From NCBI GenBank assembly GCA_965197795.1, contig OZ240228.1, positions 813,128-877,127 of the forward strand: DNA of 64,000 bases, given 5' to 3'. The notes under the pieces are model-generated. The model worked only from the letters and a program-made list of their open reading frames with translations, was not told the origin of the DNA and searched no databases. This document shows, piece by piece, positions 31,975-48,387 of the stretch (positions within the stretch are counted from its first letter, which is position 1; every line of letters begins with the position of its first letter). A program made the position numbers and the translations under genes. The DNA is from Dehalococcoidia bacterium (lineage in GTDB: Bacteria; Chloroflexota; Dehalococcoidia; DSTF01; WHTK01).

Positions 31975-32082
31975 CATGTCGTTTCAGTCGCTTTCCCCCG
32001 ACGACGCGGTGGCGGGGGAGCAGACGCGCAACACGACCAACCTGTTCGACGGGTTCTTGCCACCCCGGACTCGGCGCCGCGA

Positions 32083-32337: not shown

Positions 32338-32655
32338 CTAGCGTCTCCCGAAGCCCCCGTCGTGCAGTACCGTCTTGCGGCTATGGCAGGTCTGGCACAG
32401 CGCCCGCAGGTTGTCAGCGGCATCGGTCCCACCTCGAGACAACGGCCGGATGTGGTCAATCACCGTAGCCCTGGCGCCGCAGGCTATACAGCGTGGTTGA
32501 CGAGCCAGCACCCTGCGGCGAAGGCTTTGCCACGCGGAACCGTAGCCTCGGCGCGCTGTTGTGGGACGCTGTGCCTGGTGAGCCAGGCAGCGCGCCGACC
32601 GCGTGAGCACGGTGCAGCCAGGCTCAGAACAGGGCGCGGGCAGCCGGCGACGCAT
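32338..32655 (-). CDS. phage-type HNH endonuclease (copy 1)
   Basis: CxxC ... HIRPLSRGG ... NLRALCQTCH. 105 aa. A paralog (~85% identical) is at 48975..49298. Confidence 0.7.
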   Translation of the reverse strand: MRRRLPAPCSEPGCTVLTRSARCLAHQAQRPTTARRGYGSAWQSLRRRVLARQPRCIACGARATVIDHIRPLSRGGTDAADNLRALCQTCHSRKTVLHDGGFGRR

Positions 32656-33011: not shown

Positions 33012-33393
33012 ATGACTAGCGGGCGGATACCGAAGCAGAACGCCGACCGTCTGACGACGCATTCGTCGGAGGTCAACGAGGAGCTGCGGCTCCCCGGCAA
33101 AGTGCGTGCCCGGCAAGGTGCACCCACCGGCGGCTCCGGCCCACTGGCCGGAGAACGCACAGAAGTGGTATCGCCTGCTCCGGCGGTCGGGGCAAGCCGC
33201 GCTGCTCGACTACAGCGATTGGGCGCTGGCTTTGGCGGGCGGAGCTTCGAGAGATCAGCGCCGGACCCGACACGATTGGCGCGAGGATCGCTTCGCTTGC
33301 TCAATTGGTGTCAATGCCACGATCTCCCTGACCGCTCCTCATCAAGGTCAAACCGCTCTCCGGAAGCGTTGCCGGTCGCTGTCAGGGCCGTGA
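33012..33393 (+). pseudogene. phage terminase small subunit remnant (frameshifted by a 16-bp tandem duplication near 33100 and diverged at the 3' end)
   Basis: MTSGRIPKQNADRLTTHSSEVNEELRLPGKV matches the intact copy at 49511. ggcaaagtgcgtgccc is duplicated. The downstream frame gives HPPAAPAHWPENAQKWYRLLRRSGQAALLDYSDWALAL, then unrelated sequence. Confidence 0.5.
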
Positions 33394-34084
33394 CCCTCGC
33401 CCTCGAACGGGACTCCCCAGGAATTGCCTCTGCGCCGGGCGTGCACTCGGCGAGCACGGGGATGAGCGTCCTCAGGTGCGGGGTCAAGTGCGCCTCGTCC
33501 AGCAGTACCAGGCTATCGGTCCCCGCCATGGCGGCGTCTATTGGGCGCAGTGTCGATCCATAGCCGCGAAACAGGAGCCGTGAGCCGTACATCGGCAACG
33601 TACACAGGAGGACCGTCGGGCGTGACGGGTCGGCCGGCGCCCGCGAGGCGACTCCCCCGCGCAGCCGGATTACATCGAGCGCTGGTGCGGCTGGCAGGGC
33701 AGAAAGGGAACTGAGACGCTCCGCGACTCCGCCGAGAACATCTCTGGCATGTCCCGAGAGGCCGGCCGAACCGGGATCCGCGAGCACCTTCGCAAGTCTC
33801 TCGGCGTGTTCTGCGGTTGAGTCCACCAATAGGCGCCGGTTGACGACCCACCAAATACGGGTCGGTGCTGTCCGTTGCGCTGGCTCCCGATCCGCCTGCG
33901 ACGCAAGCCACCACACCGCGATGTCCAGGCACGCGGTCTTCCCTGCGCCTGTCGGAACGCCAACCTCTGCGGGCCACTCCTCGGTCTCAGCGACCCGTTC
34001 GGCCAAGCGCGCCTGCCAGGGAAAGGGCTCGCGCCCATTGATCGACCAGTAGAAGTCAGCGAAGGTCGGCGCGGGAGCCATCAT
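33311..34084 (-). pseudogene. cas3: Cas3 helicase (type I-G/I-U style, no N-terminal HD) N-terminal fragment of about 258 aa
   Basis: FADFYWSINGREPFPWQARLAERV...VGVPTGAGKTACLDIAVWW (Q motif and motif I). ...LRGG...TVLLCTLPMYGSRLLFRGYGSTLRPIDAAMAGTDSLVLLDEAHL matches the Cas3 helicase core. The ORF stops after ~258 aa where the terS remnant begins. Confidence 0.55.
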
Positions 34085-34119
34085 CGTTAACCGGGAAGGT
34101 GTTCGCTCGTCATGCCGGA

Positions 34120-34886
34120 CTACCGAGCGGTACGCAGAGCCCAAAGCCGCGCTGTCGCCCGGAGCCGATCGCGACCGGCCCTGAAATCGCTCCACTGAAC
34201 CACAGCTCGACGTGAGAGTAGGGAAGCGCTGGTTTGCCTGGTCGATTCACCTCCACGGGAGCGAGGTCGAGTGCACCCGGGACCAGCGCGGTACGCGATG
34301 GAGTGCATTAGTGCCGGGAACTGCGACCGGCTCACCGAGGCGCCGCGTTCGGTCCACTTCTTATACAGGAGGTTCCAGAGATCGAGATCTCCAGCCTGGG
34401 GCACGTTGATTACGGTGCTGCCGTCGTGATCTGGAACGAACGCGGCGGCACCAACAGTAGACGGGAGTGTCCCGGTCGTGACGCGGACGCGCACCGGCGA
34501 GTCCGAGGAGCCGAGGTAGCCACCCGGGCGGCGCGCCGACGAAGCGCATCAACGATCGCGTCCTCGCGCGGGTTCACCTCCCACGAGTAGCCAACGTGGG
34601 GATAGCGGGGGGCGACCCGCACTCCTGCGCGGCTGAGCGCACCCGAACGGCCCACGTACTCGTGGTGAGTCTCCTTGGCTGCGCTGTCCCCGTGCCGAAC
34701 GACGTACTGCGGCTGAAGCGGCTGGTGAAATGGTTTCGGGTCAGCATAGATGACCGGCGGCGGCAACTGCTCGAACCAATCCAGCTCCGCGCCATCGGTC
34801 ACTCGGCACGCCTCTCCCGTCCCGTCGGCAGCCACTAGTGCTGCGAACAGACGCACTGGAGACGGCTGCCACTCGCCACTGCTCAA
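34120..34886 (-). pseudogene. Csb2 (Cas5/GSU0054 family, type I-G/I-U) N-terminal fragment with an internal frameshift
   Basis: EWQPSPVRLFAALVAADG resembles the WPPSP.RLF.ALVAA signature of GSU0054/Csb2. The reading frame switches near 34495. Total coding is about 255 aa of an expected 500. Confidence 0.4.
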
Positions 34887-35237
34887 GAGACCGGTGTTGG
34901 CGGTCCTGTCCGGATCACCGCGAAACGTCCCGTGGCCGACCGAATGCCGCCGCCGGACAGGGCGAGGCCCACAAGGTTATTTGTTACAGAAGGCTTTCCG
35001 GGAGCGGGACGGCGTCACGCCCGACATCCTCTCGCTCCCTGCTTACCCATTTCTCGACCTCGTCCTCGAAGACAGGGTCGAAGGCAGGTCTGTAGTACTG
35101 CGATCCTTCCTCTGGGGAGCTACCGAGGGGGGGTTTACTGCACCTAGGAATCCCTTTAGATGTTTAGAAACATGCTCTCGCGCGCTTCTGAGGTTCATGT
35201 CGCCAGTTCCTCCTCTTCTTTGCAGGCCCAAAGTGGG

Positions 35238-36349
35238 CTACCACTGCCACCAGACGCTGTCCCACTCGGCCCGGAGGTCAGTGGATGCCCTGGTGGACAT
35301 GACGTCTGATGCCGAGACGGTCTCACCTGGCTGCAACTCTTGGCCGCCTGGGACAGGAGCGAGCCTCCATTGCCGTCCGGTGGGGACGGTACCCTCCGAT
35401 ACGGCGAGTGTCAGCCGTGGCCCCTTGGTGGTGTCTTCAGCTTTGACGACCGTGCCCCTGACCGTCTCGCGGAACATGTCCCATTCGGGCCCGGTAGCTT
35501 TCAGGAACGGGTTGCAAGCGCCCCGGAACGGACAATGATCACATGTCTCCGCCGACGGACTTGCGAGCGAGCCTTCGGACGGTGACCGGCTAACGGCCTC
35601 GTTGAACTCTTCCAGTAGCCGGTAGGCCTCCCTGCCCTGCTCCTCCACTAGGGCCTTGTCCAGTTGGGCCGAGACCCTGGTGCCGTCCGTCCTCTGCAGT
35701 GAGACGACGTCTGGCCACTCACCGTGCTGGTCATGCCAGATGAAGGCGTATAGGAGCAGCTGCCTCCCGTAGCTGGAGTCCGGCCCGAGGGAGGGTTCCG
35801 GCCAGGAGACTCCGTTCTTGATGTCGACTAGTTCTAGCCGGCCGTTGCCTGACTCCACGCGGTCGACCCGTCCGACGAGAAGACCGTCCTTTGTCTCGGT
35901 CCACTCCTCGACGGCTACGCTGCCACGCGCCGGTTGCCCGCCCGCTTCCCGTGGGGCAACCCTCCGGCGGGCTACTTCTGATACTGCATTGACAAGCCTT
36001 ACCCTGGTCAGTTGGTACCTCGGCCAGCGCTCTGGCGGAGGTGGTTGGAGTCCGTCCGGTTCGGACTTTAACTCCTCAACGCGAGCGGCGATCAGTGCCT
36101 CCCACTGTGACCCGACTGCGGTCTCAACCGCGTCTTCATCTAAGCCGTCAAACTCCCCGCGGGCCAGCGCCTCATAGACCCCGTGCACCGCAGTGCCGAG
36201 TAGGGCCCACGTGGACTGTTGCTGCGCCGCTGCGAAGCCCTCGTCCAGGCCGAATGCCACGCGGAGCTGACAAGACCGCAGTCCTTCCAATGTGGAGTGG
36301 CTGGCCCGCTTGAGTGGTGCGAATGTGACCTCGCCAGGCCTTTGCAAGG
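35238..36349 (-). CDS. Cas4-like PD-(D/E)XK nuclease with a C-terminal Cys cluster (start uncertain, overlaps the DruE-like stop)
   Basis: LELVDIKNG (D/ExK) and CDHCPFRGACNPF (Cas4/AddB-type Fe-S Cys motif). It lies immediately downstream of the 1793-aa helicase gene on the same strand. Confidence 0.6.
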
Positions 36350-39300
36350 TTAGGATCCGTTGAGCCAGCTGATGATGTCCACCGAGTGGTGCAGGAGCGA
36401 GAAAAGGTCGGAGGCCCTGATCTCCTGCGCCCCATGCCTCACCATTTGATCCTCCGCCTCCGCCTGCTCGGCTGTATAGAAGGAGCTGTCCGACCGCCAT
36501 AGAGGGTGACCGAAGAAGACTGCGCGGTGGCTGTCCGGCATCGATGCTGTCCAGAGCCCCCCGACCTGGTCGACCTGGGCCTCAGGGAAGCACTCAGCGA
36601 AGCCCCGTACAAGCCGGTCTGCCGTAAGTTGCCAGCGGCTGAAGTCCAATGGCAGGCCCCGGACAAGGTCGTTGACGTCGAGCGCCAGCCGCCAGTCCAA
36701 GAGTGCGTGGACGTGCCGGTTGTCGTAGTGCCGTAGGCAGTCTGGACATGACGTGAGGCACTCGTCCGCGTGGTCCTTCCTCAAGAATCGGTCGCCCAAG
36801 TCCTCTTCGATCCGCTTCAGTACCGAGTTGAGTACTTCAGGTCGGCCTAACTGTGAGCAGTAACCCGCGCCGTTCTCTAGAGTGTCGGCCAGGAAGACCC
36901 GGGCCGTGGGCTCGTCGCCAGAGGACACTGGCTGGAGGCCGGCCCTGACCTCGAGTGGCCCGACGTCCAGCTCAGTCGTGGCCGCTAACCGGAAGACCTC
37001 AGCGAACGACCACAGGGCCGCCCGGCCGGCCGGCATGTGCGCCCGGTTCGTGGAGATCACGCCAGTCGGGCCTGGCAGGTCCTGGCTTTCAACCGTCAAC
37101 GTCAGGACATCGGTCGGGCTGATGCTCCCGATCGCGGCTGTGAGCGTAGGCTCCCGGCCCGTGAGTCCGGCGACTCGGTGCGGTACTTCCGTGTACGTGT
37201 CAGGGTCAGCCACGACGTAGGAGTTGTGGTCGAACCGGTGCATGGCGAACAGCTTTTGGTCGTTGTCGTTGATGCTGAACAGGTCTGCCCCCGGGATAAC
37301 ATCGGTAGTCGCCCCCCCGACGTCGAAGCTGTCTGCGCCCGTCGGGCCATACGCGAGCTGGGGGAACCCGGCGCCGTAGCCACGCTCTACCTCGTCGTCG
37401 TAGTCTCCGGGTTGGAAGTCAGTCCGGAACCCCAATGGTTGGTAGAGGTCGAATGAGTCCATCGCGCTGTCGCACGCCGGGCAGTCGTCACCCGCTGCCT
37501 CGGCGACTGTGACCGCCTGGCAGACTGGGCACCTCCTTACGTGGACTGGTGTGCCTAATGGGTTGGTGACGGGGACCGGGCGGCTCCCTACGAATTCCCA
37601 GGCCGCGAACCCGATGGCCCGGTGGAGCTGCTTGTCCTTCAGCACTTCCGAACCTGGGGCGAAGCTCGATATGGCGATGTCGAGTGCTCGGTCGGATACG
37701 GCTGCACCGTCGTCGAGTGGGCCGCGCGGCGGGCGGCCGTAGAGCTCCCTTACTCGGCTCGGGAAGCCGAACATCGGCAGGACGCCGGCGTTAGCTAACC
37801 GCTCGCTCAGCTCGGGTTGGATGTACGTCTCACTGTTGACTATCTCGTCGATCTTCGCGGCAAGGCCTTCCCGAGCCCAGGCTGATAGGACGGCGAGGTC
37901 ATCGGCACTGAGCCCTGTAAAGGCTGTCAGGCGTTGGACAGCATCGCCTGCTTCCGCAGCATGGGCCAGCCAAGGTACGACGGAGTCCCTGTACTTGGCC
38001 TGCCAGTCGCTTGCGGCGCCGAAAGCGCCGTGCGTACTGTCCCGGGTTTGCCTTGGTCTCTGGTCAGCGGGCACCTGGAGGAAAGCGAGCCGGAGGATTT
38101 CTGAGGCGATCACCCTGCGCACGATTTCGGCCCGGTCGAGGTCGAGGTAAGGGGGAGGTGGCGGGTCGCCTGTAATCCGTTCTGAGTGCAGGAAGTAATA
38201 CTCGTCGTGCGAGCGGTCCCGACACAGCGTCAGGGCGAACGAGAACGGCTGCCCTTTACGGCCGGCTCGCCCGACGCGTTGTTGGTAGTTGAACCGCTGC
38301 GGCGGCATATTGGCCATCATCACGGAGCGGAGCGAACCAATGTCGACGCCGACCTCCATGGTCGTCGTCACGCTGAGGACGTCAATCCCGTGTGTCAGGT
38401 CGGTTTCCTTCGGTTCCCCGAGGAAGGCTCCTTTGAACCTCCTCTGGCGGCCGCGTTGTTCACTCAGCGGCTTCGTCTGCCCTGTCAGCTCCTCGACTGC
38501 GAGGCGGCGAGACTCGTCGCGAGTGAGCCAGGTGAAGTAGTCCTCGTCTATTCCGCCGGTCCAGACTTCCAAGCTGCCACTACAACCACGGAACGTGCAC
38601 GCTCCCGCCGCCTGGTGCAAGTGGAGGCGCGTGCACTTTTGGCACTTCCAGAGCTGCTCCCCAGACGCCCTCACGACGCTGAGTGCGGCCATCTGGAGGT
38701 TCCAGTTGTCGTCGACTACGCCGGACGACCTAAGGGCGTTCTCGACTGCAGAGGTCAGTTCCCCTTGCCCTATGGAGTGGTTGGCCGCGGCCCTTGCAAG
38801 GTACAACCGGAGTGGTGGCGGGACAGTTGTAGACGGGTACTGTTCTCCTTCGCGCGGGTGCCGCCCCGCCAGGCCGAGTACCCGGACGCTCCCGAGTATG
38901 ACTTCCCGCGCGGCTGCGTCTGGCAACGGGATGTCTGCCGTGCTCAGACGGGACGGTTCCAGGTAGCCGAGCCCGATGGACTCAAAGTCTCTTCCGGCGC
39001 TGTCGAAGAGTAACGTGGCGAGGTAGACCTCAAGCTGTCGTCTCAAGTCTTCCTCGACCTGGAGGCTTTCAGCTGGCGAAAGCTGCTGCCATGTCGCTCC
39101 TGTCGGGGGAGGGAACGCCCTCCACCACTCGAGGCCCCGTGGCCGTTGGAGGCTCGCCTTGGGGCCGCCGGGGTTGACGCCCAGTGTTGAGAGGGCTTGC
39201 TCTACTTTGGCGAGGAGGTCTGTCCAGGCGAGCCGGTCGCCCCTGTTGCCCTGCTGGGACTCGAAGTCCTCTATGGTGAGCTTCGCCTCCTCGTCGTCAG

Positions 39301-41731
39301 GGACGCGGTTCAGGATCCTGTAGGCTGCCCACACGTCAGGCCAGGTCCTCGCGTACAGGCTCCGTTGACTCTCCTCGTCGGGGCTGAGGTCAGCTCCAGA
39401 CGAAGCCTTCCTGAATAGGTCGGGAGCAGCGACTACCCTCTCTAGTTCTTTATCCATGACCTGCCGGACCAAGTTCCGGAAGTGGTTGAGTTCGAGCCCC
39501 GCAGCCGTTTGGGCAGCATCGTCGCGGCTGTCGTTGAAGACAATGGTGCGACCATCTTCGGGATTTTCGCCCATGGAGCGGACGAGGCGGTCGAGGACGA
39601 CCTGGCCCACGCGGGCGAAGCCCGTGCGGTGGCCTCTTATAGGGCTGCGCACAACCCCCCGGAAGAATGTAGACAGCTGCCTACTGTTTGGCTGCTGTGA
39701 ACCGCAAGCGGGACAGACTTCAGGCAAGGCCGCCACCTTGTGCCGTTCCGTCGGTATGTCGGCCACGTTCATAAATGTACCGGTCGCCGGACCCGCGGCT
39801 CTCGTGAGCATGCCTAGGCGGGGGTCGTAGTCGGCACCCAAAAGCGAGAAGGTGGTCCGCTTGCTCACACCGGGAGCGGTATGGTGCCAGGGGTCGAGCT
39901 TGAGCTCTGGGTCGTTCTGCCGCCTAGGCCAATACCACATGAACTCGCCCCATGTCCGGCGGTTTACCAGTGCCGACTCTTTAGAGGGGACGTCGTCTTC
40001 GGTAGGGCCGAGGAACCACTCCGTTGGTTGTGGGTCGGCAGTCCGGACCGCGAATCCGCCCAGGGAAACGTCGCCGCACTGGTCGCAGTACAGGAGCTCG
40101 AGGACTCGTGAACCACAGGAGCAAGTCGGGGTCGGCCGTGAGTAGAGGCGCCCGACCCTCCGTTGCGGGGAGTGCCAGTCGTCCTGGCCCGGCGCGCTAC
40201 AGTTGGGGTTGCTGCAGGCCCAGACCCCTGGGACGTTCCGGACAAACAAATGGGCACGGAACGGTATGGCATCCCCACCAGACTGGAGTGCCAACCCATC
40301 GAGGACTGCGTTCAACGCCGACGTGTCCCCATCGGGCTTGGTATCGAAGATGAGCTCTTCGAGGTCTCTGAGCTTGCGTGGCTTGACCTGACCGTCAGGT
40401 CCGGTGCAGGCCACTGCGACGACTGTGGCCACTTCCATCTCTCTGAGCGCCTTCCGTAGTGTGTCACTGCGGATCTCCGGCCCGAGGGCGTCGATTTCTC
40501 GGAGCGCCTCTCGCGACAGCGGCCTGGCCGCCTTCAGCGCCCGTGGCACGCCGGGGATGACGGTGAAAGTAGAACGGTCTACGCCGAAGAACTGCTCGAG
40601 GTACTCGTAGCTCGACTCTGAAGACTCCGGCAATGAGGCGCTGGTGCCAATGCACCTCAGCTGTGGCGAGTCCGGTGTCAGCCCGAGCCTGCTCAGGAAG
40701 TTGCGCACTACTAGCGCGACCTCTGTTCCTTGGGAGCCACGGTAGGTGTGAAGCTCGTCGACTACCAGCGTGAAGACATTTGACTTGTCCTCGGCTAGCC
40801 AATCCCTGGTCGCCCGGAAGAGGTGTGCCTCTCTCTGCCGCATCAGCATCACGTTGAGCATCGAGTAGTTCGTAACGAGGACGTCGGGCGGGGCCAAAAG
40901 CATGTCCCAACGGGTCAGGAGTTCCCCCTGGGTCGGGTCCGGGAACTGTGACCATAGTTCGAGGTCAGATATGCCGATGTCCCGCGACTCTGCCTCTATC
41001 TTGCGGAGCTCGTTCATAACCTCCCGGACGCGCTCCGTCCCCGTGTGCTCTGGGAGGTCGCCGGGTCCTAGCGTGACGCCGGTATAGCGGCCGAAGTAGA
41101 AACGCCTCCCACTGGAGCGTTCCCCGAGTAGGACCGCCCGGCGGAGGCGGGCTATCTGGTCTTCGACCAGCGCATTGGTCGGGTAGAGCACCGCAGCGCG
41201 GACTGCTGCCGTCCGGCCATCGTCTTTCCGCACACCACTAAACGGCTGCCGTCCCCTGGACTGGTCCCACCATTTGTCTGGTTGGGGCGGGGCGGGCCAA
41301 TTGTGGCGTTCTGCTTCCGACAACAGGCGGGCGAAGACGGGCAAGAGGAAGCTCTCGGTCTTGCCAGAGCCCGTCCCGGAGGTGACGACGGGGTTGTGGA
41401 CACCGCTGTCTTGAAAGGCGGCCCGGAGTGATGCGGCCTGGTGCGGCCTCAGTTTGAAACCCCCGTCCTCGGCTGAAAAGAGCATCCGGCCCAGCGTGTC
41501 TGCGACTGCTTGGCTGAGGCCGACGTCGGCACAGACCTGGCGTATCGACTCAACCGAGTCGTAGGGCAAGACCGGTTCAAGGAGCGGGTCGGTGAAGATG
41601 ACGTCGTCTCGGCTGAGCAGGTCGCGCCGCTCGGCCCGGATGCCAGGGTCGTCGAGGCGGAAAGCAGTATCGTAGTACCGGAGGTAGGCCTCACGGACCG
41701 ATGTGTAGACAGTAAGGGGCTGTGGGTTCAC
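36350..41731 (-). CDS. DruE-like giant DEXH-box helicase with zinc ribbons and a DUF1998-like C-terminal region (1793 aa)
   Basis: Motif I VTSGTGSGKTESFLLP, motif II VVDELHTYRGSQGTEVA, helicase-C MEVGVDIGSL...QRVGRAGRKGQP. Cys4 clusters CSNPNC...CSCGS...CDQCG and CPVCQ...CPACD. Size and architecture match Druantia DruE. Confidence 0.7.
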   Translation of the reverse strand: MNPQPLTVYTSVREAYLRYYDTAFRLDDPGIRAERRDLLSRDDVIFTDPLLEPVLPYDSVESIRQVCADVGLSQAVADTLGRMLFSAEDGGFKLRPHQAASLRAAFQDSGVHNPVVTSGTGSGKTESFLLPVFARLLSEAERHNWPAPPQPDKWWDQSRGRQPFSGVRKDDGRTAAVRAAVLYPTNALVEDQIARLRRAVLLGERSSGRRFYFGRYTGVTLGPGDLPEHTGTERVREVMNELRKIEAESRDIGISDLELWSQFPDPTQGELLTRWDMLLAPPDVLVTNYSMLNVMLMRQREAHLFRATRDWLAEDKSNVFTLVVDELHTYRGSQGTEVALVVRNFLSRLGLTPDSPQLRCIGTSASLPESSESSYEYLEQFFGVDRSTFTVIPGVPRALKAARPLSREALREIDALGPEIRSDTLRKALREMEVATVVAVACTGPDGQVKPRKLRDLEELIFDTKPDGDTSALNAVLDGLALQSGGDAIPFRAHLFVRNVPGVWACSNPNCSAPGQDDWHSPQRRVGRLYSRPTPTCSCGSRVLELLYCDQCGDVSLGGFAVRTADPQPTEWFLGPTEDDVPSKESALVNRRTWGEFMWYWPRRQNDPELKLDPWHHTAPGVSKRTTFSLLGADYDPRLGMLTRAAGPATGTFMNVADIPTERHKVAALPEVCPACGSQQPNSRQLSTFFRGVVRSPIRGHRTGFARVGQVVLDRLVRSMGENPEDGRTIVFNDSRDDAAQTAAGLELNHFRNLVRQVMDKELERVVAAPDLFRKASSGADLSPDEESQRSLYARTWPDVWAAYRILNRVPDDEEAKLTIEDFESQQGNRGDRLAWTDLLAKVEQALSTLGVNPGGPKASLQRPRGLEWWRAFPPPTGATWQQLSPAESLQVEEDLRRQLEVYLATLLFDSAGRDFESIGLGYLEPSRLSTADIPLPDAAAREVILGSVRVLGLAGRHPREGEQYPSTTVPPPLRLYLARAAANHSIGQGELTSAVENALRSSGVVDDNWNLQMAALSVVRASGEQLWKCQKCTRLHLHQAAGACTFRGCSGSLEVWTGGIDEDYFTWLTRDESRRLAVEELTGQTKPLSEQRGRQRRFKGAFLGEPKETDLTHGIDVLSVTTTMEVGVDIGSLRSVMMANMPPQRFNYQQRVGRAGRKGQPFSFALTLCRDRSHDEYYFLHSERITGDPPPPPYLDLDRAEIVRRVIASEILRLAFLQVPADQRPRQTRDSTHGAFGAASDWQAKYRDSVVPWLAHAAEAGDAVQRLTAFTGLSADDLAVLSAWAREGLAAKIDEIVNSETYIQPELSERLANAGVLPMFGFPSRVRELYGRPPRGPLDDGAAVSDRALDIAISSFAPGSEVLKDKQLHRAIGFAAWEFVGSRPVPVTNPLGTPVHVRRCPVCQAVTVAEAAGDDCPACDSAMDSFDLYQPLGFRTDFQPGDYDDEVERGYGAGFPQLAYGPTGADSFDVGGATTDVIPGADLFSINDNDQKLFAMHRFDHNSYVVADPDTYTEVPHRVAGLTGREPTLTAAIGSISPTDVLTLTVESQDLPGPTGVISTNRAHMPAGRAALWSFAEVFRLAATTELDVGPLEVRAGLQPVSSGDEPTARVFLADTLENGAGYCSQLGRPEVLNSVLKRIEEDLGDRFLRKDHADECLTSCPDCLRHYDNRHVHALLDWRLALDVNDLVRGLPLDFSRWQLTADRLVRGFAECFPEAQVDQVGGLWTASMPDSHRAVFFGHPLWRSDSSFYTAEQAEAEDQMVRHGAQEIRASDLFSLLHHSVDIISWLNGS

Positions 41732-44700
41732 GAAGTCACCTTTTCCCAGAGCAGCGATGCGACATCAGGGGGTACAGCCTGGTAGACGGAAGCCCTGTCG
41801 GAGCGACTAACCGGCGGCAAGCCAGAACAGAGCGTGGCCACGCGTCCGTAGAGTCCCGGCAGTTCGCTTCCGGCCCGGACGACCAATTCCTCCTCGGCAG
41901 GACTGTAGCTACAGGCCGGAGCCTCCGAGAGAGTGGCTGCCCACAACTTGGCGAGACGTGTCTCAGCCTGCTTGTAAACCTTTCCGTCATAGACAGCTAC
42001 TACTCGGGGGTGGGCTGGGAACCGATAAGCCGCGGTTTCGGTCAAGTCTGAGCAGTCCTGCCAGCGGTTAGATGGGGGGTCGAACTTTTGGACACCGAAG
42101 CGGGTAGGCGGAGTGATCTCGCGGGCCTGGGCCATCAGAGAAGAGAAGGGTGGCAATAGGGCGAGGGCTTCCCTTGTCGGGTCGGCACGTGCAGTTATCT
42201 CGTGGCCCAGGTCTGAGAGCTTCTCGGTGACGAATTCAACCTGACCACGCGTCAGTCCCTCCACCCTGTACCTTTTGGGGCCGTTGGCTGGCCGGGTAGT
42301 AACCACGTTGCCGCCAGCGTCCGAGACTTCTTTTTCTAGCGCCTCGACCAGCGTTTTGCTGCGTCGTCCACACAGCACAGCCGAGCCAGCGTCTGAGGAG
42401 AACGCCAAGACGGATGGCGCGACTGACCATGCCGTTGGTCGCATTTCCGCGGCGGAGAGCGCGACGTCGATATGGCCTAGGGCGACGAGTTGTCTCATGG
42501 ACTCGACAGCAAAGAGCGCAGAGTCTTCCAACTGCCTGGCGAGCTTCTCAAAGCTGCTCCAGAGGCCAGCGCCCTCGTAGGAGAGAGCTTCCAGGAGAAG
42601 GTCGAAGTCTTCTCCAGAAGTCGTGCGTGTAATGCCGAGGGCTGGCAAGAGCCTTGGCCGAAGGTCACGACGAGAGGACGGCAGTACCGTCTGGGCGCCG
42701 GTCTTTGGACGTCTCCTCCGCGGACTCGGCGGGAAGTGCCGGGACTTATTGCAGTTCTTACAGTAACCAGAGTGGGGACGATAGAAGCCAGAGAGGTTGG
42801 TCACCGCCTGAATGACCCAGTGGTGGGCACCTGTCAGACAGCCTTGGGCCGCGAGGGAGATTGGGGCAGTCTGGATAGCAGGGAGCTCATCGACTTCGTC
42901 CTCTTCTGGCCAAGGTTGAAGCTCCTCGGACAAGGCTTCAGGAGGGAGACCACTTCTGTTGCTGACCGCCTCTCCGTCTGAGGTAACGAGGACCCCTGAC
43001 AAGCTCGCGTTAGGGGCAGAATCGCTTGAGGAGGCTGATATAGCGCCAACTGGTGGGCCCGATAGGTCGTGACCAAACCAGGCGGTTGATGGCCCAGGAC
43101 GGGGGTGGTCAGCAGACCTGAGTCGTAGGGAAGCACTCGCGACGACCCTACCTCCGTCCTCTAAGAGGGCCAAGAAGTCGCCTTCTCCTAATCCACGTCC
43201 AGACAACTGGAGGACCGTGCTGCTCTCTACTGGCTCTTCGGCCAGCGCCACTTCTTTCGAGCGGTGTCCGTCCAATTCGTCAGCGTAGACCGCCAGCTTG
43301 AGGGTCTTCGTGTCGTGTGCGTTGGCGATCACGTCAGGCGGAGCGGAAACCAACCAGACGCTATTCCTGAGGCGGACTCCACCGTGGAGCTCGACCGACG
43401 TCCAAGACAGAGGCATCAAGGGGGACAAGTCGAGGTCTGTGCTGTCGAGGAGCCCGAGCACCTGCACGCTTGAGAACAGCGTCCAGCCTTCGGGCCCGTT
43501 CACAACTGTGCCCTGCGTGTGCCTCTTATAGCCGTCTCGTGCTATCCGTGTCAGCACGTCCTCCACACGGTCGGCCAACCGGTCAACAACTAGGAGCAGA
43601 CACTCGCGACCGAGCTCGACATTTCCGGCTTCGACGTACTCCCCGAGCGATTCGTCTGAGGTGAGGACGACGACGCTGCGGGGGTTTCGGACTATTGAGG
43701 AATCACCCTGGGAGGACTTAAGGTCAACCGTCCCGAGCAGGATGTCAGGGATAGAGACCAGCTCCGCGTCTTCAACTTCCAGCCAGCCCTTCACTTCACC
43801 TGGCCGGAGGTGGACTTCACCGCCAAGCTCTGCGAAAGCCAGCTGGGCGGCTTCCGCGGAACCAGGCTGCAGCACAAAAGGGCCATTCTGGAGCGAACCG
43901 GAGTCAGAGACGGCGAGTGAAAGCCTGAGGGTAGGGTGCGGCAGTCGCCTGAAAGTCGCGACGAGCGACAGACGCGCCCTCCTCCGGAGCGCGCTGTCGG
44001 TGGATTCCCGTGACACGCCGTCCCAGGCCTTTAGCTCTCCGCCGGCGATCTCAGCTACTCGTTCCCGGACTTCTACCCGGCGCCACAGCCGCTTCACCGT
44101 TTGGCTTAGCTTCGAGTGAGGGACCCAGTCCTGTAGGAGCCTCAGCATGTCGGCCCGGCTGATTACTTGGCCAGGCCGCAGGTCGTAGGCATCGAAGAGG
44201 TCGGGAAATGCCTCCCTGTCCTGTTCTCTTAACAGGGCCTGGGACAAAGGGATGCTTACGTGTATGCGGTGGTCGAGAGGGACAGCGGTCGGTACTCCGT
44301 GCTCACTTTCTTGTTCCCGCATCCAGGCGTTAAGTTGCCTCCAGAACTGGTCAATGGCGGCGTACTCTTCTTCGACTGCCTTTCGTTGTGCTTCCTGGAG
44401 GCCTAGTCCTTCGGTCAAGGGGGTGTAGAAGTTGTTACCGGCGTGCTCCAGGGTGTTCTTCATCCTGGAGGCGACCAAGCAGAAGAACGCCAGCAGGCCA
44501 ATGAACAGCGGGTGTCCACTACGACCTTTACTTGCCCAGTCGTCGAGGAAGACTTGGTGCCAATAGAAGAGGTGTGACAAGTCTCCGCCACGGTCCAACG
44601 TAGCGAGGACTGCAGACTGGAAGTCATCAACTGACCCCAGCTCCGCGTATTCACCTATCTCATTCAGTACGTCTTCGTCTGTATCTAGATAAACCGGACG

Positions 44701-44805
44701 GTCTCGGGCCACATCAGGCGAAAAGTACCGCTCGAAGATCGCGTCGTTCCAGTGGAGGTAAGGCCTCCACGCATTGAGTACTGGCCCCGAACCGGACTCA
44801 CCCAT
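41728..44805 (-). CDS. DruH-like large protein of unknown function (1025 aa), translationally coupled to the DruE-like gene
   Basis: 4-nt overlap with the downstream DruE-like start. Size and position fit DruH of type III Druantia, but no diagnostic motif is recognised. Confidence 0.4.
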   Translation of the reverse strand: MGESGSGPVLNAWRPYLHWNDAIFERYFSPDVARDRPVYLDTDEDVLNEIGEYAELGSVDDFQSAVLATLDRGGDLSHLFYWHQVFLDDWASKGRSGHPLFIGLLAFFCLVASRMKNTLEHAGNNFYTPLTEGLGLQEAQRKAVEEEYAAIDQFWRQLNAWMREQESEHGVPTAVPLDHRIHVSIPLSQALLREQDREAFPDLFDAYDLRPGQVISRADMLRLLQDWVPHSKLSQTVKRLWRRVEVRERVAEIAGGELKAWDGVSRESTDSALRRRARLSLVATFRRLPHPTLRLSLAVSDSGSLQNGPFVLQPGSAEAAQLAFAELGGEVHLRPGEVKGWLEVEDAELVSIPDILLGTVDLKSSQGDSSIVRNPRSVVVLTSDESLGEYVEAGNVELGRECLLLVVDRLADRVEDVLTRIARDGYKRHTQGTVVNGPEGWTLFSSVQVLGLLDSTDLDLSPLMPLSWTSVELHGGVRLRNSVWLVSAPPDVIANAHDTKTLKLAVYADELDGHRSKEVALAEEPVESSTVLQLSGRGLGEGDFLALLEDGGRVVASASLRLRSADHPRPGPSTAWFGHDLSGPPVGAISASSSDSAPNASLSGVLVTSDGEAVSNRSGLPPEALSEELQPWPEEDEVDELPAIQTAPISLAAQGCLTGAHHWVIQAVTNLSGFYRPHSGYCKNCNKSRHFPPSPRRRRPKTGAQTVLPSSRRDLRPRLLPALGITRTTSGEDFDLLLEALSYEGAGLWSSFEKLARQLEDSALFAVESMRQLVALGHIDVALSAAEMRPTAWSVAPSVLAFSSDAGSAVLCGRRSKTLVEALEKEVSDAGGNVVTTRPANGPKRYRVEGLTRGQVEFVTEKLSDLGHEITARADPTREALALLPPFSSLMAQAREITPPTRFGVQKFDPPSNRWQDCSDLTETAAYRFPAHPRVVAVYDGKVYKQAETRLAKLWAATLSEAPACSYSPAEEELVVRAGSELPGLYGRVATLCSGLPPVSRSDRASVYQAVPPDVASLLWEKVTS

Positions 44806-44908
44806 GTTCCACCTGCAATGTCCGTAGTCGTTCTCCCACGATTAAGAGATTGACGAATGCTAATCGCACTTAAGTGGAGGCGTAAAGGACTGAAGGTTGG
44901 AAGGTTCG

Positions 44909-45601
44909 TTACAAGGAAGAATCGCAGATGGATGTCAGCGGACACACCGTGCAGGCGGGCCTCACGTAGCGGCAGACTGTCGAACCGAGGTCGAGCAGTG
45001 CCCAGTTGAAGGTCATGTGCTGTGGTTCAGGCAAGAGCGCAGTGGCGAGCTCCTGGACGGGGCTCAGCCGAGGGGTGGGGCCTAGTTGGTCTCTGAACAC
45101 GCGTCCGAGCACGCGGACTACATTCGAATCGACTACCGCTGAAGGGACGTCGAATGCAAAAGACAGCACTGCACGAGCGGTATAAGGGCCGACGTGAGGC
45201 AACGCAGAAAGCTCTTCGAAGGAAGCAGGGATACTCCCGCCGTGTTTCTCCATGAGGACGCCCGCAAGCGCCTTCAGCCCGACTGCGCGCTGGGTATACA
45301 GCCCGACGGGCCTTAAAACACCTGAGAGTTCGTCTATCGGTGCGCGTCCCAAGCTTGCTAAGTCCGGGTACTGCTCCAAGAATTCTGGGAACGCGCGGGC
45401 TGCTGCGCGTGCCGTCGTCCGCTTCAGAAGCAGTTCTGCAATAAGCACCTCGTAAGGGGGGATGCCTCGGCGGCGCCAAGGAAATTCTCGGAACGCTGAT
45501 GGAGCCCACGCCAAAAGCAAACAGGCGAACTCGCTCAACGCCTTCGACACCTGGGTCTGGTTGCCGTTCTCCCCCACGTGACGAGCATAGCCTGGGTTCA
45601 A
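44909..45601 (-). CDS. HhH-GPD DNA glycosylase (MutY/Nth-like catalytic domain with a [4Fe-4S] cluster; no MutY C-terminal domain)
   Basis: PWRR...PYEVLIAELLLKRT, LGRAPIDELSGVLRPVGLY.QRA, LPHVGPYTARAVLSFAF...DSNVVRVLGR, C.YVRPACTVCPLTSIC. Confidence 0.7.
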   Translation of the reverse strand: MNPGYARHVGENGNQTQVSKALSEFACLLLAWAPSAFREFPWRRRGIPPYEVLIAELLLKRTTARAAARAFPEFLEQYPDLASLGRAPIDELSGVLRPVGLYTQRAVGLKALAGVLMEKHGGSIPASFEELSALPHVGPYTARAVLSFAFDVPSAVVDSNVVRVLGRVFRDQLGPTPRLSPVQELATALLPEPQHMTFNWALLDLGSTVCRYVRPACTVCPLTSICDSSL

Positions 45602-45689
45602 CCAGCTGTCCCATGTTCATGCAGGACGGGCCCGAGAGCCGAACATTGTTAGAATTCCCCAGCAGTACCCTCGCTACAGGTGGTAAGAG

Positions 45690-46436
45690 ATGACGACGCC
45701 ACAGGCCTCAGATGCCGCCGAACAGATTGTTCAGAGCGTAATGGCTAAGTATGTGGACAAGAGAGTTGCCTACTACCGGGATACGTCACTGCTCTCGAAG
45801 CTACTCCAGAAGGATCACTTGATTTTCGCTCTAAAGGGCGCGAGCACTGTGGAAGAATGGGTCATTGAGGCCTTAGCAGCCCATGAGTCCTCCTCTGAGG
45901 AGACCGTGATGGGCAACGCATGGCAGCAGATCCTGACCGACCTTTCACAATCGGTAGGGGCGGGTGACCTCTTCGTGGAGAAAGCGGGGACGCTATGGGT
46001 CATCGAAATGAAGAGTCAGACCAATACCTTGAACTCGACGGCCCTCGCTCAGACGTTGCGCGTCCTGAAAACAAAAGTAATTGAGCAGTCCCGGGTCCAC
46101 GCTCCGGGGCGTCGGGGTGTAAGACCAATGATTGGAGTCATCCGAGGGCCTGCCAGCGACGTGGACAGGGTGTTCGTTGCGGCCTCACCGGAGAACCGGG
46201 ATATCGACGGCTTTCAGTATCACTATATGGTTGGTACACCGTTTCGGGCCTGGCTCACAGGTATCGCTAACCCAGCGCAGTTGGTAACGGACCTCGCCGA
46301 GACCTCGGAGCGAGTTTCCAACGCCCGCGCGGCATGTCGGCTGAGGTTGGCCGCTGAAATGGAAGCAGTCCTGGCTCAGGAAGGCCTAGCCAGCAATATT
46401 GAGTCCGTTATTAGGTTGGTTGCCGGCAAGCTTTAG
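45690..46436 (+). CDS. putative type II restriction endonuclease, convergent with the C5-methyltransferase
   Basis: PD-(D/E)XK-like GDLFVEKAGTLWVIEMKSQ. Tail-to-tail with the dcm gene (3-bp gap). Confidence 0.4.
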   Translation: MTTPQASDAAEQIVQSVMAKYVDKRVAYYRDTSLLSKLLQKDHLIFALKGASTVEEWVIEALAAHESSSEETVMGNAWQQILTDLSQSVGAGDLFVEKAGTLWVIEMKSQTNTLNSTALAQTLRVLKTKVIEQSRVHAPGRRGVRPMIGVIRGPASDVDRVFVAASPENRDIDGFQYHYMVGTPFRAWLTGIANPAQLVTDLAETSERVSNARAACRLRLAAEMEAVLAQEGLASNIESVIRLVAGKL

Positions 46437-46438
46437 GA

Positions 46439-47755
46439 CTAGATGCTTGCTTCTGCGTAGGCCTTGACCGCAGCTGGCTCCGGTAGAAGTTCGCTAGCTG
46501 GTTGGAGCGGCGGTTGCGTTCGCTCTCCGTGTCCCGTGTCCCTAGGCTCACCCTCCGAAGTTCTTATAAGTGCACGTCCGATGGCCTCCCCAAGGCTGAC
46601 CGGAACGGCGTTCCCCAGTTGTTTGTACTTGCTCGCCGTCCTTCCGGCGAGCAAGTAGGTGTCAGGGAAGGTCTGAATCCGTTTGTACTCTTGGACTGAG
46701 AGCGGCCTGGTCTCCGTCGGGTGACAAAGGCCGGTTGCTAGCTGCGCCGGGCTGGTCGTAACCGTCGGTGACGGTTCGTTAAGCGAGAGTCGCCGCCAGA
46801 AGCCGACCCTGCCGCCCGTGGACTGGAGTGCACCTCCCATCGCACGTTCTAAGAGGCCTTCGGCAAATAGGTCTGCGTTGTCCCTGAGGTGACGCCAGTT
46901 CCTGCCCTGCGGTATCAGTGAATAGACCCGCGCTCTAAATGGACTGTACGGCGAGAACTCGGGTGGCCCTAGCGGATCCGGGACGAATGCGTCTCCCAGT
47001 GTCACCCATGGCTGCCGTCCCTCTCCCGGGTGTGAGGCGATCAGCCGGCTTTTCTTGGTGCCCACAGGTGCGCCGTGGGTGGGGCGCACGAGGTCTTGTA
47101 CCGTGAGCGGCCGGCCGGCCTCCCCGAGGAACTCCTGCGACCTGAACTCGTGCTCGCGGCTCCCGAGGACGACCACGCGCGTCCGCCGCTGCGGCACGCC
47201 GTAGTCGGCCGCGTCTACAAGGCCGGCCACGACCTCATAGCCGAGGGCCTCAAAAAGGGGCCGGATAAATGACTTGTAGAGGCTCCCGAGCTCTTCACCG
47301 GGCTGGAGCGGCACGCTGCCTTTTCCCCTCGCTGACAAGGGGCGGTGTTGAAGTGCAGCGGACAACAGCCCTCGGACGTTCTCGAAGACGAAGAACCGGG
47401 GCATTGCAGTCTTTACTATTTGGAAGTAGTGGTCGACAAGCGCGCCCCTCGGGTCATTCAGCGACTGCCGGTGGCCAGCCGTCGAGAACGCTTGGCAGGG
47501 TGGGCCACCCGTCACCGTGAAGGCCTCGCCTTGCTCCAGGCCCGCGGCGGCAAGCAGTTCTGCCCCGTTAACTTCGGTGATATCTGAGAACAGGGCGTTT
47601 GATGGGATCTCGAAGTTCTGACGCAGCGTCTCCTGAGAGTCGCGGTCGACTTCGACCCAGGCATTGAACCGGAGGCCAGCGTTCTCCAGCCCAAGATCCA
47701 GCCCACCAGCACCGGAGAATAGCGAGATAGAAGGGTCGGCGGGGGACGGTAACAT
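46439..47755 (-). CDS. dcm: DNA (cytosine-5)-methyltransferase
   Basis: Motif I ISLFSGAGGLDLG, motif IV GGPPCQAFS, ENV, QRRTRVVVLG, TFPD...GNAVP. Confidence 0.85.
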   Translation of the reverse strand: MLPSPADPSISLFSGAGGLDLGLENAGLRFNAWVEVDRDSQETLRQNFEIPSNALFSDITEVNGAELLAAAGLEQGEAFTVTGGPPCQAFSTAGHRQSLNDPRGALVDHYFQIVKTAMPRFFVFENVRGLLSAALQHRPLSARGKGSVPLQPGEELGSLYKSFIRPLFEALGYEVVAGLVDAADYGVPQRRTRVVVLGSREHEFRSQEFLGEAGRPLTVQDLVRPTHGAPVGTKKSRLIASHPGEGRQPWVTLGDAFVPDPLGPPEFSPYSPFRARVYSLIPQGRNWRHLRDNADLFAEGLLERAMGGALQSTGGRVGFWRRLSLNEPSPTVTTSPAQLATGLCHPTETRPLSVQEYKRIQTFPDTYLLAGRTASKYKQLGNAVPVSLGEAIGRALIRTSEGEPRDTGHGERTQPPLQPASELLPEPAAVKAYAEASI

Positions 47756-47796
47756 CACTTGCCCTCTAGAGGGATAATTTAGCTCTAAGCGAGCCA

Positions 47797-47818
47797 CATG
47801 TCGATCTTTGCTTAGTAG
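47797..47818 (-). repeat. repeat unit half-copy (reverse A half only), copy 4
   Basis: aTGTCGATCTTTGCTTAGTAG, 78 bp upstream of forward copy 5. The two form a short inverted pair. Confidence 0.6.
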
Positions 47819-47898
47819 CGCGTCACCTTCAGAGTCAACGGGCGTGGAGATAGGCGTCGGAGCAATCTGGTCGGGGGGATTCGTATCTCGTGGAAACA

Positions 47899-47954
47899 CT
47901 ACTAAGCAAAGATCGACAGTCAGGGCGATCCCTAGACTCCGAAGATCGACAGTC
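47899..47954 (+). repeat. bipartite repeat unit, copy 5 (forward)
   Basis: CTACTAAGCAAAGATCGACAGTC-agggcgatcccta-GACTCCGAAGATCGACAGTC. Reverse complement of copy 2. Confidence 0.8.
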
Positions 47955-48387
47955 GACCCTGAACAGGGAGGCCTGCCTGGCCTCGAGAAAAACTCACCGA
48001 AAGGCAGCGCGGTTGAGTCTCCTCTGCCACGTTGTGCCGCCGACGGTCGACCTCTCTTCTGGATGCCACAGCTGCAAGCCGCTGCCACCGCAGCAACTGG
48101 CACCCAATTGCTTCAATGGCGCTGGAGGCAGGCCTATCATTGCCATCTAATCCTCCGGCAGCAGACCGGGCGAAAGTTCAGATAGCGAGGCTAACAACCG
48201 GGGGGCTGGAAACTGAGTCAGAACGATGTCGGAGTGGTGGTTATGGCACAAGTAGTGGCGGAAATCTCACGGCCCGGAGCTGCACACAACTCCAATTTGA
48301 GGCGATTGACCGGCTCCTAGTCTCGGAACCCGTAGCTGAGGACTCAGCACCATAACTGTTGGACCCAACCCTAGCGAGGCAGCCCCC

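What the first reader, a model, noticed from the sequence alone, without database searches (positions are those of the whole stretch)
33311..34886. Degraded type I-G/I-U CRISPR-Cas remnant (cas3 N-terminal fragment and frameshifted csb2 fragment) without any CRISPR array, truncated by phage-like DNA
The Cas3 fragment ends exactly where the terS remnant begins. Csb2 is frameshifted and only half length. No cas1/2/4/7/8 genes and no repeat array are visible in the window. This looks like a former CRISPR-Cas locus overwritten by mobile-element insertion.
Basis: partly seen in the sequence, partly recalled or inferred. Interest (0 to 1): 0.5.

Follow-up and report, generated by a model that had tools for sequence, protein, structure and literature searches.

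The report
Decayed type I-G CRISPR-Cas gene remnant
This 1.6-kb stretch is the dead leftover of a type I-G CRISPR-Cas operon (a broken csb2 gene and the first quarter of cas3), stranded in a fast-changing defence island between a Druantia anti-phage system and a broken prophage packaging gene; it is real but ordinary.

Summary
Window 33335-34934 (minus strand) descends from a type I-G cas operon. Cas3g matches profile positions 2-228 of 854 (E 1e-63). Csb2 scores above its curated cut-off.

Compared with 80 intact relatives (gene order csb1-csb2-cas3-cas4/cas1-cas2-array; best 86% aa identity), the window copy has five lesions:
- csb2 lacks its first 10 codons.
- csb2 has a 1-nt deletion at about 34521.
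- csb2 has a 544-nt internal deletion.
- cas3 stops at codon 263 of about 941, so it lacks RecA2 and the HD nuclease.
- Everything on either side of these two genes in the operon is gone.

The window holds no other cas fragment, no array and no copy of the relatives' 37-nt repeat.

The neighbouring terS remnant is real (PF25673, N-terminal 72 of 142 aa, frameshifted). It lies on the opposite strand, 91 nt from the cas3 break, and is itself truncated there. It is a diverged duplicate of an intact HNH-terS module at 48.7-49.9 kb. The junction is therefore a rearrangement scar, not a clean insertion end.

The region belongs to a hypervariable defence island next to dnaN. Related genomes carry different cargo at that site.

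Conservation and dN/dS of the cas3 piece match those of intact genes, so the truncation is recent. I judge it non-functional. It is a known kind of thing and of low interest.

The parts
34521..34934 (-). csb2 pseudogene, segment 1 (residues 11-150 of a 472-aa intact Csb2). The first 10 codons and everything upstream (cas7/csb1, cas8g) are missing. Homology to all relatives stops sharply at 34934/34935.
   Evidence: tblastn; blastn to 80 loci; N-terminal comparison; TIGR02165 53.1 bits
34252..34521 (-). csb2 pseudogene, segment 2 (residues 151-239), in another frame after a 1-nt deletion in a G-run (GGG to GG) at about 34521.
34288..34300 (-). Junction of a 544-nt internal deletion in csb2 (L001 9243-9786, residues about 240-410: the linker and most of the Cas6-like domain). 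The endpoints share about 13 nt of imperfect microhomology.
   Evidence: Overlapping blastn HSPs; alignment A1
34125..34298 (-). csb2 pseudogene, segment 3 (residues 411-468, the C-terminal end), running up to the cas3 start as in intact loci.
33335..34105 (-). cas3g N-terminal fragment (residues 4-263 of about 941). RecA1 with motif I (PTGAGKT) and motif II (DEAH) is kept. RecA2, the Cas3-like C domain and the HD nuclease are absent. The mechanical ORF is 33311-34195 and stops 8 codons past the break.
   Evidence: C-terminal domains of the family (PF22590, PF18019) are seen in relatives
33244..33334 (.). 91 nt of filler between the cas3 break and the terS' break; it matches nothing.
33012..33243 (+). 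Terminase small subunit pseudogene (terS'): residues 1-31, a frameshift, then residues 27-72 of a 142-aa protein. It is a paralogue (83% aa identity) of the intact terS at 49511-49936.
32338..32655 (-). Intact phage-type HNH endonuclease (105 aa). It is part of the duplicated HNH-terS module 32083-33243, which matches 48721-49726.
34935..35237 (.). 303 nt of unmatched DNA between the csb2 break and the stop codon of DruK.
35238..48103 (-). Context only: a Druantia-like defence cassette. DruK-like PD-(D/E)XK nuclease is at 35238-36500, DruE at 36350-41731 and DruF at 41728-44805. A Vsr-like nicking endonuclease is at 44909-45601, an EcoO109I-like restriction enzyme at 45690-46436 (+) and a C5-methyltransferase/DruM at 46439-48103.

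Best explanation
This is a non-functional, recently decayed remnant of a type I-G (formerly I-U) CRISPR-Cas operon, kept as passive DNA inside a hypervariable defence island next to dnaN. The ancestral locus had the order cas8g-csb1(cas7)-csb2-cas3-(299-aa gene)-cas4-cas1-cas2-array, as in all 80 relatives. At least four lesions reduced it to 1.6 kb. (1) A break 10 codons into csb2 removed cas8g, cas7 and the promoter side; that end now abuts the 3' flank of a complete Druantia-like cassette. (2) A 1-nt deletion shifts the csb2 frame. (3) A 544-nt deletion between short direct repeats removed most of the Cas6-like half of Csb2. (4) A break at cas3 codon 263 removed the rest of cas3, the adaptation genes and the array; that end is joined through 91 nt of filler to a terminase small-subunit gene that is itself broken. 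What remains cannot make or process crRNA, build Cascade, unwind or cut DNA, or acquire spacers. Shown here: the homology, the exact lesions, the absence of the other parts from the window, the intactness of all relatives, and the variable-island context. Inferred: loss of function, the recent timing, and that the outer junctions are illegitimate-recombination or deletion scars rather than insertion ends.
For: All 80 related loci have full-length, single-frame csb1, csb2 and cas3 except where a contig ends, so this architecture is not a recurrent variant. The short Cas3g 'proteins' in the big protein database are split genes within complete loci, not a stand-alone family. The 294-aa ORF (P0140) and DruF (P0139) are recorded on one 3.2-Mb contig only. 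Csb2 shows excess change: 6 deviations at 91 columns that are at least 95% conserved, against a median of 1 and a maximum of 4 in intact homologues; one is P to Q in the EWPPSP motif. The cas3 piece shows no excess: 3 deviations at 97 columns, with a maximum of 5 in the others. Its pairwise dN/dS of 0.13-0.30 equals the 0.14-0.29 of intact-intact pairs. That fits recent inactivation. There is no array, no repeat and no other cas fragment in the window. terS' is truncated at the junction and is a diverged copy of an intact module 16 kb away. Related genomes share the ribD...dnaN-serine recombinase-tyrosine recombinase backbone at about 81% nt identity but carry other cargo: type I R-M, GmrSD, or almost none. 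For function, Csb2's C-terminal domain is the crRNA-processing nuclease, its N-terminal Cas5-like domain is needed for complex assembly, and Cas3 binds via Cas8g (PMC9638904). Here the first is largely deleted and Cas8g is absent.
Against: The cas3 fragment is an uninterrupted 294-codon ORF with conserved motifs I and II and no excess of substitutions, so expression of a RecA1-only protein cannot be excluded. The single-base frameshifts in csb2 and terS' lie in short homopolymers and could be sequencing errors in a MAG, although the truncations and the 544-nt deletion cannot. Only 64 kb of a 3.2-Mb genome was seen. A second, intact I-G locus or an array elsewhere is possible; relative OZ253578.1 carries two copies, L005 and L006. 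The order of events and their mechanism, deletion versus insertion, are inferred. No sister strain carrying an intermediate state was found.
Confidence: 0.88

Rival explanations
1. One reading: an intact chromosomal I-G locus was hit by insertion of a phage or mobile element, whose DNA now replaces the missing part of cas3 and the array.
For: Phage-type HNH and terS sequences lie immediately beside the cas3 break. The whole region is rich in recombinases and an IS remnant. IS-truncated cas loci are documented elsewhere, for example a III-A locus in Mycobacterium sp. SM1 (PMC10333696).
Against: An insertion leaves a complete element end at the junction. Here terS' is broken at codon 72 of 142, with a frameshift, and the recognisable left end of its module (a 230-nt repeat at 32072-32310) is on the far side. 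91 nt of unrelated filler separate the two breaks. The other break (34934/34935) faces a Druantia cassette, not phage DNA.
Confidence: 0.25
2. The truncated Cas3g (RecA1 only) is a retained, functional gene. It might act as a dominant-negative or decoy against I-G systems, or as an accessory ATP-binding protein co-opted by the adjacent Druantia cassette.
For: It is an open 294-codon frame with Walker A and DEAH intact, 3 deviations at 97 conserved columns, and dN/dS like that of functional genes. It lies on the same strand, directly downstream of DruK.
Against: No other genome shows this architecture among 134 tblastn-confirmed relatives (80 kept and inspected) or in the protein database. It is contiguous with an obviously dead csb2 in native operon order. 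The ORF end is supplied by junction DNA. No promoter-like site was found upstream. The low divergence is equally explained by recent truncation.
Confidence: 0.03
3. Assembly artefact: the MAG contig is chimeric or collapsed here, and the real genome has an intact I-G locus.
For: The source is evidently a metagenome-assembled 3.2-Mb contig. Nearby diverged repeats (HNH-terS copies, R1 elements) could mislead an assembler. The 1-nt frameshifts sit in homopolymers.
Against: Three independent structural lesions, none at a repeat shared with another part of the window. The repeats are only 79-88% identical. The csb2 deletion has the microhomology typical of a real deletion.
Confidence: 0.04

Closest known systems
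Type I-G (formerly I-U) CRISPR-Cas, as in Geobacter sulfurreducens GSU0051-0054 and Thioalkalivibrio sulfidiphilus (PMC9638904). Nearest sequences are intact loci in Dehalococcoidia/Chloroflexota MAGs (L001 OZ240224.1, L020, L002).
   Same: The Cas3g N-terminus is 85-86% identical to L001, and the three Csb2 segments are 67-79% identical. The csb2-then-cas3 order and abutment are the same.
   Different: Only about 28% of Cas3 and about 59% of Csb2 remain. Csb2 carries a frameshift and a 544-nt deletion. There is no cas8g, cas7, cas4, cas1, cas2 or array. This is a pseudogene remnant, not a system.
Partial or disrupted cas loci reported in other bacteria, for example the IS3-disrupted type III-A locus of Mycobacterium sp. 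SM1 (PMC10333696).
   Same: cas genes are truncated and neighbours are missing next to mobile DNA.
   Different: Here no intact mobile-element end sits at either break, and the flanking phage-like gene is itself truncated.
Defence islands and mobile-element defence hotspots with rapid cargo turnover (general concept, from my own knowledge of the field).
   Same: The remnant sits between a Druantia-like cassette, R-M genes, HNH nucleases and an ABC-type ATPase, in an island anchored by recombinases next to dnaN. The cargo of that island differs between related genomes.
   Different: Nothing distinctive. The remnant is debris of such turnover.
L112 (ENA ERZ25069191 ctg578584), another degraded I-G locus.
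   Same: Only the last about 28 residues of Csb2 are present, plus a gapped Cas3, with no csb1.
   Different: Unrelated lineage (about 62% aa identity to L001) and different lesions. It is a low-coverage assembly, so some of the breaks may be errors.

Membership tests
Type I-G cas genes (descent) | Cas3g-type helicase sequence (TIGR02621 / PADLOC Cas3g) | tested here: met
   E 1.2e-63 over profile 2-228/854; 8e-70; 85% aa identity to L001 Cas3 residues 4-263. The score of 216 bits is below the full-length cut-off of 400 because only a quarter of the protein is present.
Type I-G cas genes (descent) | csb2, the signature gene of I-G (PMC9638904) | tested here: met
   TIGR02165 53.1 bits, cut-off 45. 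Three collinear segments are 67-79% identical to L001 Csb2.
Type I-G cas genes (descent) | Operon order csb2 directly followed by cas3, as in relatives | tested here: met
   Same order and abutment in all 80 loci; the window has csb2 C-terminus 34125 and cas3 34105.
Functional type I-G CRISPR-Cas system | Full-length Cas3 with both RecA domains and the HD nuclease | tested here: not met
   Homology ends at codon 263 of 941. PF22590 and PF18019, present in relatives, are absent.
Functional type I-G CRISPR-Cas system | Intact Csb2 (Cas5-like N-domain plus Cas6-like C-domain that processes crRNA) | tested here: not met
   5' truncation, 1-nt frameshift and loss of residues about 240-410.
Functional type I-G CRISPR-Cas system | Cas7 (Csb1) and large subunit Cas8g | tested here: not met
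   No tblastn hit in the window with any ORF of four intact loci outside 33326-34935; csb1 coverage is 0.
Functional type I-G CRISPR-Cas system | Adaptation genes cas4/cas1/cas2 | tested here: not met
   No hits in the window. The only Cas4-like signal is the DruK PD-(D/E)XK nuclease, far below the Cas4 cut-off (20.6 against 65 bits). The rest of the genome was not seen.
Functional type I-G CRISPR-Cas system | CRISPR array with the family's 36-37-nt repeat | tested here: not met
   No array by TRF or repeat search. The relatives' repeat GTGTCGCCGGGG-N6-CCCCGGCCTTnGTTGAGCG has 0 matches at up to 3 mismatches. No Rfam hit. This applies to the window only.
Functional type I-G CRISPR-Cas system | crRNA-guided interference | not testable with these tools
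   Needs experiments; it is predicted to be impossible from the missing parts.
Phage terminase small subunit (Pfam PF25673 Terminase_7) | Full-length match to the 139-position profile | tested here: not met
   terS' covers profile 2-70 only and has a frameshift. The paralogue at 49511-49936 covers 2-138 (E 2.5e-22).
Druantia defence system (neighbour, context only) | DruE helicase plus type-specific partners | tested here: inconclusive
   DruE2 1630 bits, DruF2 502 bits, DruM2 230 bits and DruK 152 bits. No DruG was looked for or found, and the subtype is not resolved.

The most novel reading that the evidence does not exclude
The remnant may be debris of a site-specific cassette-exchange process rather than of random decay. 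It lies in a block (32.1-47.9 kb) bounded by copies of a 55-nt element, R1. R1 consists of two direct 13-mers, AAGATCGAYRGTC, 33 nt apart around a variable spacer. It occurs 5 times in the window at module borders and also in the dnaN-adjacent islands of three related genomes, next to a conserved set of one serine and two tyrosine recombinases. If R1 is the recombinases' target site, the island would be an integron-like exchanger of whole defence systems, and the cas fragments would be a by-product of imprecise swaps.
Probability: 0.08. Interest if true: 0.6.

Novelty: already known. Interest (0 to 1): 0.12.

Why it matters
It matters little in itself. It is one more example of CRISPR-Cas loci being eroded during turnover of defence islands, here with the lesions mapped to the base. 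It has modest use as an annotation warning: the 294-aa ORF is deposited as a protein (P0140) but is a truncated Cas3g, so cas3 hits in this genome should not be counted as a CRISPR-Cas system. It is also a dated marker, because the truncation is recent relative to dS of about 0.5 to the nearest relative. The surrounding island (a dnaN-adjacent hotspot, the R1 repeats and duplicated HNH-terS modules) is more interesting than the remnant.

Tried and rejected
- Source contig and sister strains. Exact-protein look-ups of DruK, HNH, DruE and P0140 found nothing on record. An exact 36-nt search across the cas3 junction in metagenomes gave 0 hits. DruK relatives in metagenomes: none confirmed.
- Stand-alone family of short Cas3g N-terminal proteins. 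The protein search returned only hits of 140-450 aa. The two inspected (P0005, P0003) are split genes inside complete I-G loci in low-coverage assemblies, so the idea was rejected.
- P0141, the 90%-cluster mate of the window ORF. It has no DNA similarity to the window and comes from a different, also degraded, I-G locus.
- Phage relatives of the terS remnant. None in IMG/VR, in GenBank phages by tblastn, or in plasmids for the 32-35.3 kb DNA. HNH relatives in IMG/VR are 51% identical at most across the main match, and no similar terS lies beside them.
- Profile searches of ORFs in 32.7-33.6 kb on both strands gave nothing until the two terS frames were stitched.
- The filler DNAs 33244-33334 and 34935-35237 have no match in the window, the 80 I-G loci or the viral loci.
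- Promoter and terminator scan of 32.6-35.4 kb: nothing informative for the remnant.
- R1 as a structured RNA or hairpin: no covariation. R1 in viral contigs: 0.
- terL-like look of ORFs 49936-50208 and 50371-50979: not supported by Pfam.
- PDB sequence search with the Cas3 fragment and two unknown island proteins: no hits.

Full report
**Observation**

On the minus strand, ORF 33311-34195 (294 aa) matches the type I-G Cas3 model TIGR02621 at E 1.2e-63. The match covers only profile positions 2-228 of 854. The ORF also matches PADLOC Cas3g at 8e-70. Pfam shows no more than a sub-threshold ResIII hit. ORF 34410-34886 matches Csb2 (TIGR02165, 53.1 bits, cut-off 45, profile 21-137 of 492). These are not chance matches, and no non-Cas family competes with them.

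**Comparison with intact loci**

A scan of one genome per species found 134 relatives of the Cas3 piece, of which 80 were fetched (L001-L080). The best are Dehalococcoidia/Chloroflexota MAGs at up to 86% aa identity. Copies at 60-75% identity occur in MAGs of many phyla.

- All 80 loci have full-length, single-frame csb1, csb2 and cas3 in that order, except where a contig ends. Most also have cas1 about 1.4 kb downstream.
- The three array regions examined (L001, L002, L020) contain arrays of a 37-nt repeat.

Against L001 the window aligns as follows.

| Gene part (L001 residues) | Window coordinates | Note |
|---|---|---|
| csb2 11-150 | 34934-34521 | The first 10 codons are missing |
| frameshift | about 34521 | 1-nt deletion in a G-run |
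| csb2 151-239 | 34521-34252 | Different frame |
| deletion | junction 34288-34300 | 544 nt lost (L001 9243-9786); about 13 nt of imperfect microhomology at the endpoints |
| csb2 411-468 | 34298-34125 | C-terminal end |
| cas3 4-263 of 941 | 34105-33326 | N-terminal quarter only |

DNA homology to every relative stops at the same two points, 34934/34935 and 33335. The cas3 ORF ends 8 codons past its break, at a stop codon supplied by foreign DNA.

No other ORF of four intact loci hits the window anywhere. There is no tandem or spaced repeat array. The family repeat has no copy even with 3 mismatches, and Rfam gives no hit.

**State of decay**

- At columns at least 95% conserved among intact homologues, the Csb2 remnant deviates 6 times in 91 columns. 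The others have a median of 1 and a maximum of 4. One deviation hits the EWPPSP motif.
- The Cas3 piece deviates 3 times in 97 columns, within the range of the others (maximum 5).
- Its pairwise dN/dS to relatives is 0.13-0.30, the same as for intact-intact pairs (0.14-0.29).
- Most of its divergence therefore accrued while the gene was functional, and the truncation is recent.
- The Walker A (PTGAGKT) and DEAH motifs survive. RecA2, the Cas3-like C domain and the HD domain, which are present in relatives, are gone.

**What the remnant cannot do**

The work on the T. sulfidiphilus system (PMC9638904) establishes four points:
- The C-terminal Cas6-like domain of Csb2 processes crRNA.
- The N-terminal domain of Csb2 is needed for complex assembly.
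- Cas3 docks through Cas8g.

Here the Cas6-like domain is mostly deleted, csb2 has lost its start and its frame, and Cas7, Cas8g, the adaptation genes and the array are absent. I conclude the remnant is non-functional. This is an inference.

**Left neighbour**

Two adjacent plus-strand frames, stitched together, match Pfam PF25673 (Terminase_7) at E 3e-11 over profile 2-70 of 139. The single ORF 33106-33393 scores 35.2 bits against a cut-off of 27.

Its only database homologue, P0121 (142 aa), is encoded 100% in the window itself at 49511-49936 and is a full-length terS (E 2.5e-22).

Self-comparison shows that 32083-33230 (HNH 32338-32655 plus terS') is a direct, diverged duplicate (88% and 79% nt identity) of 48721-49713 (HNH 48975-49298 plus terS). 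A third, inverted 230-nt copy of the module's left end lies at 58011-58250.

terS' ends at codon 72 (33243). 91 nt of unmatched DNA follow before the cas3 break. The two genes are convergent, and both are cut at the junction. A transposition or integration event would place an element terminus there. It does not, so I read the junction as a deletion or illegitimate-recombination scar that removed the distal parts of both neighbours, including the rest of cas3, cas4-cas1-cas2 and the array. The insertion reading remains possible for an earlier step.

**Right neighbour**

After 303 nt of unmatched DNA comes a complete Druantia-like cassette on the same strand:
- DruK-like PD-(D/E)XK nuclease (profile 3-346 of 347)
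- DruE (1630 bits)
- DruF
- a Vsr-like endonuclease
- an EcoO109I-like restriction enzyme
- a C5-methyltransferase (DruM)

**Wider context**

dnaN (15420-16553) is followed by a large serine recombinase (16500-18086), a weak, sub-threshold tyrosine-integrase match at 19392-20669 (the homologous genes in the related genomes L114/L115 carry Phage_integrase hits), and unknown genes. Next come an ABC-type ATPase plus an HNH gene, a fragment of a RecB-like nuclease/helicase gene abutting a lone IS3 orfA, and an HNH/DUF6088 pair. The modules described above follow.

Four related genomes (about 81% nt identity in the backbone) share ribD...aminotransferase-dnaN-serine recombinase-two tyrosine recombinases. 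After that they carry different cargo: HsdM, GmrSD, or almost nothing before core genes resume.

The Cas3-fragment ORF and DruF are recorded on a single 3.2-Mb contig only. The remnant therefore sits in a strain-specific, fast-turnover defence island.

**Rivals**

- A retained functional RecA1-only Cas3 is not excluded by the open frame. It is disfavoured because the architecture is unique, the ORF is contiguous with a dead csb2, its stop codon is accidental, and the good conservation is explained by recent truncation.
- Short Cas3g proteins in the protein database are split genes within whole loci.
- An assembly artefact is unlikely, because there are three independent structural lesions away from repeats. 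Read-level confirmation is lacking, and the single-base frameshifts could be errors.

**Comparison with what is known, and verdict**

The thing is a pseudogenised member of the well-described type I-G family. Truncated cas loci beside mobile DNA are documented, for example in PMC10333696, and another degraded I-G locus turned up here by chance (L112).

It fails every test for a functional I-G system in the window while passing the tests of descent. Novelty: already known kind. Interest: 0.12.

Noticed in passing
window 35238-48103 (- strand, one + gene): Complete Druantia-like defence cassette: DruK-like PD-(D/E)XK nuclease with Cas4-like cysteines, DruE (1793 aa), DruF (1025 aa), a Vsr-like nicking endonuclease, an EcoO109I-like restriction enzyme and a C5-methyltransferase (DruM). 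No DruG was seen, so the subtype is unresolved.
   Followed up: partly
window 32083-33243, 48721-49936 and 58011-58250: The HNH-terS module is present twice as a direct, diverged duplicate (79-88% nt identity), bracketing the I-G remnant, Druantia and R-M block. A third, inverted 230-nt copy of its left end lies at 58.0-58.25 kb, so 48718-58241 has 230-nt terminal inverted repeats around HNH, terS and three unknown proteins of 620, 387 and 288 aa that have no Pfam, PADLOC or PDB hits.
   Followed up: partly
window 30528-30581(-), 32085-32138(+), 47901-47974(+), 48723-48775(+), 58183-58245(-); half-site 20559-20571; also L113 18347-18393, L114 15016-15062, L115 15015-15061 and 18175-18220: 55-nt repeated element 'R1': two direct 13-mers AAGATCGAYRGTC spaced 33 nt apart around a variable spacer. 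There are 11 13-mer hits against 0.38 expected by chance. The copies sit at module borders of the island and are conserved in the islands of related genomes. There is no hairpin covariation, so it looks like a protein-binding or recombination site.
   Followed up: partly
window 15420-24500; L113-L116: A hypervariable island starts directly after dnaN. A conserved serine recombinase, two tyrosine-recombinase-like genes and two unknown genes of about 400 aa are shared with four related genomes; the cargo beyond them differs (type I R-M, GmrSD, none).
   Followed up: partly
window 58162-58980: This 0.8-kb piece (R1e plus the start of a recombinase-fragment ORF) is 95% identical to L114/L115 14995-15815, which spans the 5' end of the tyrosine recombinase gene and its upstream region. 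The genome backbones are only about 81% identical, which suggests recent transfer or a second, broken copy of the recombinase module.
   Followed up: no
window 28464-30374: Another gene wreck: a fragment of a TM0106-type RecB-like nuclease/AAA_11 helicase (490-aa ORF). Its intact homologue is an 861+ aa gene in L113. It abuts a lone IS3-family orfA (HTH_Tnp_1) that has no orfB.
   Followed up: partly
window 30528-32138: A 261-aa HNH endonuclease (-) and a DUF6088 protein (+) are enclosed by inverted R1 copies (54-nt arms, 81% complementary, 1503 nt apart). The HNH ORF's last 16 codons and its stop codon lie inside R1a.
   Followed up: no
window 26047-28074: AAA_21/AriA- or PtuA-like ATPase (567 aa) preceded by a small HNH protein (106 aa): a candidate Septu/PARIS-like defence pair, not resolved.
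   Followed up: no
L001-L080: This I-G lineage keeps an almost invariant layout and 60-86% Cas3 identity across Chloroflexota, Acidobacteriota, Latescibacterota, Gemmatimonadota, Spirochaetia, Alpha- and Gammaproteobacteria and Ca. Synechococcus spongiarum MAGs, which suggests wide horizontal spread in one habitat. One genome (OZ253578.1) has two copies (L005, L006). Several loci (including L019, L022, L037, L049, L059, L060) show no cas1 within 10 kb.
   Followed up: no
L112 9874-11758: An unrelated contig carries another degraded I-G locus: only the last about 28 residues of Csb2 and a gapped, split Cas3, with no csb1. It is a low-coverage assembly, so part of this may be error.
   Followed up: partly
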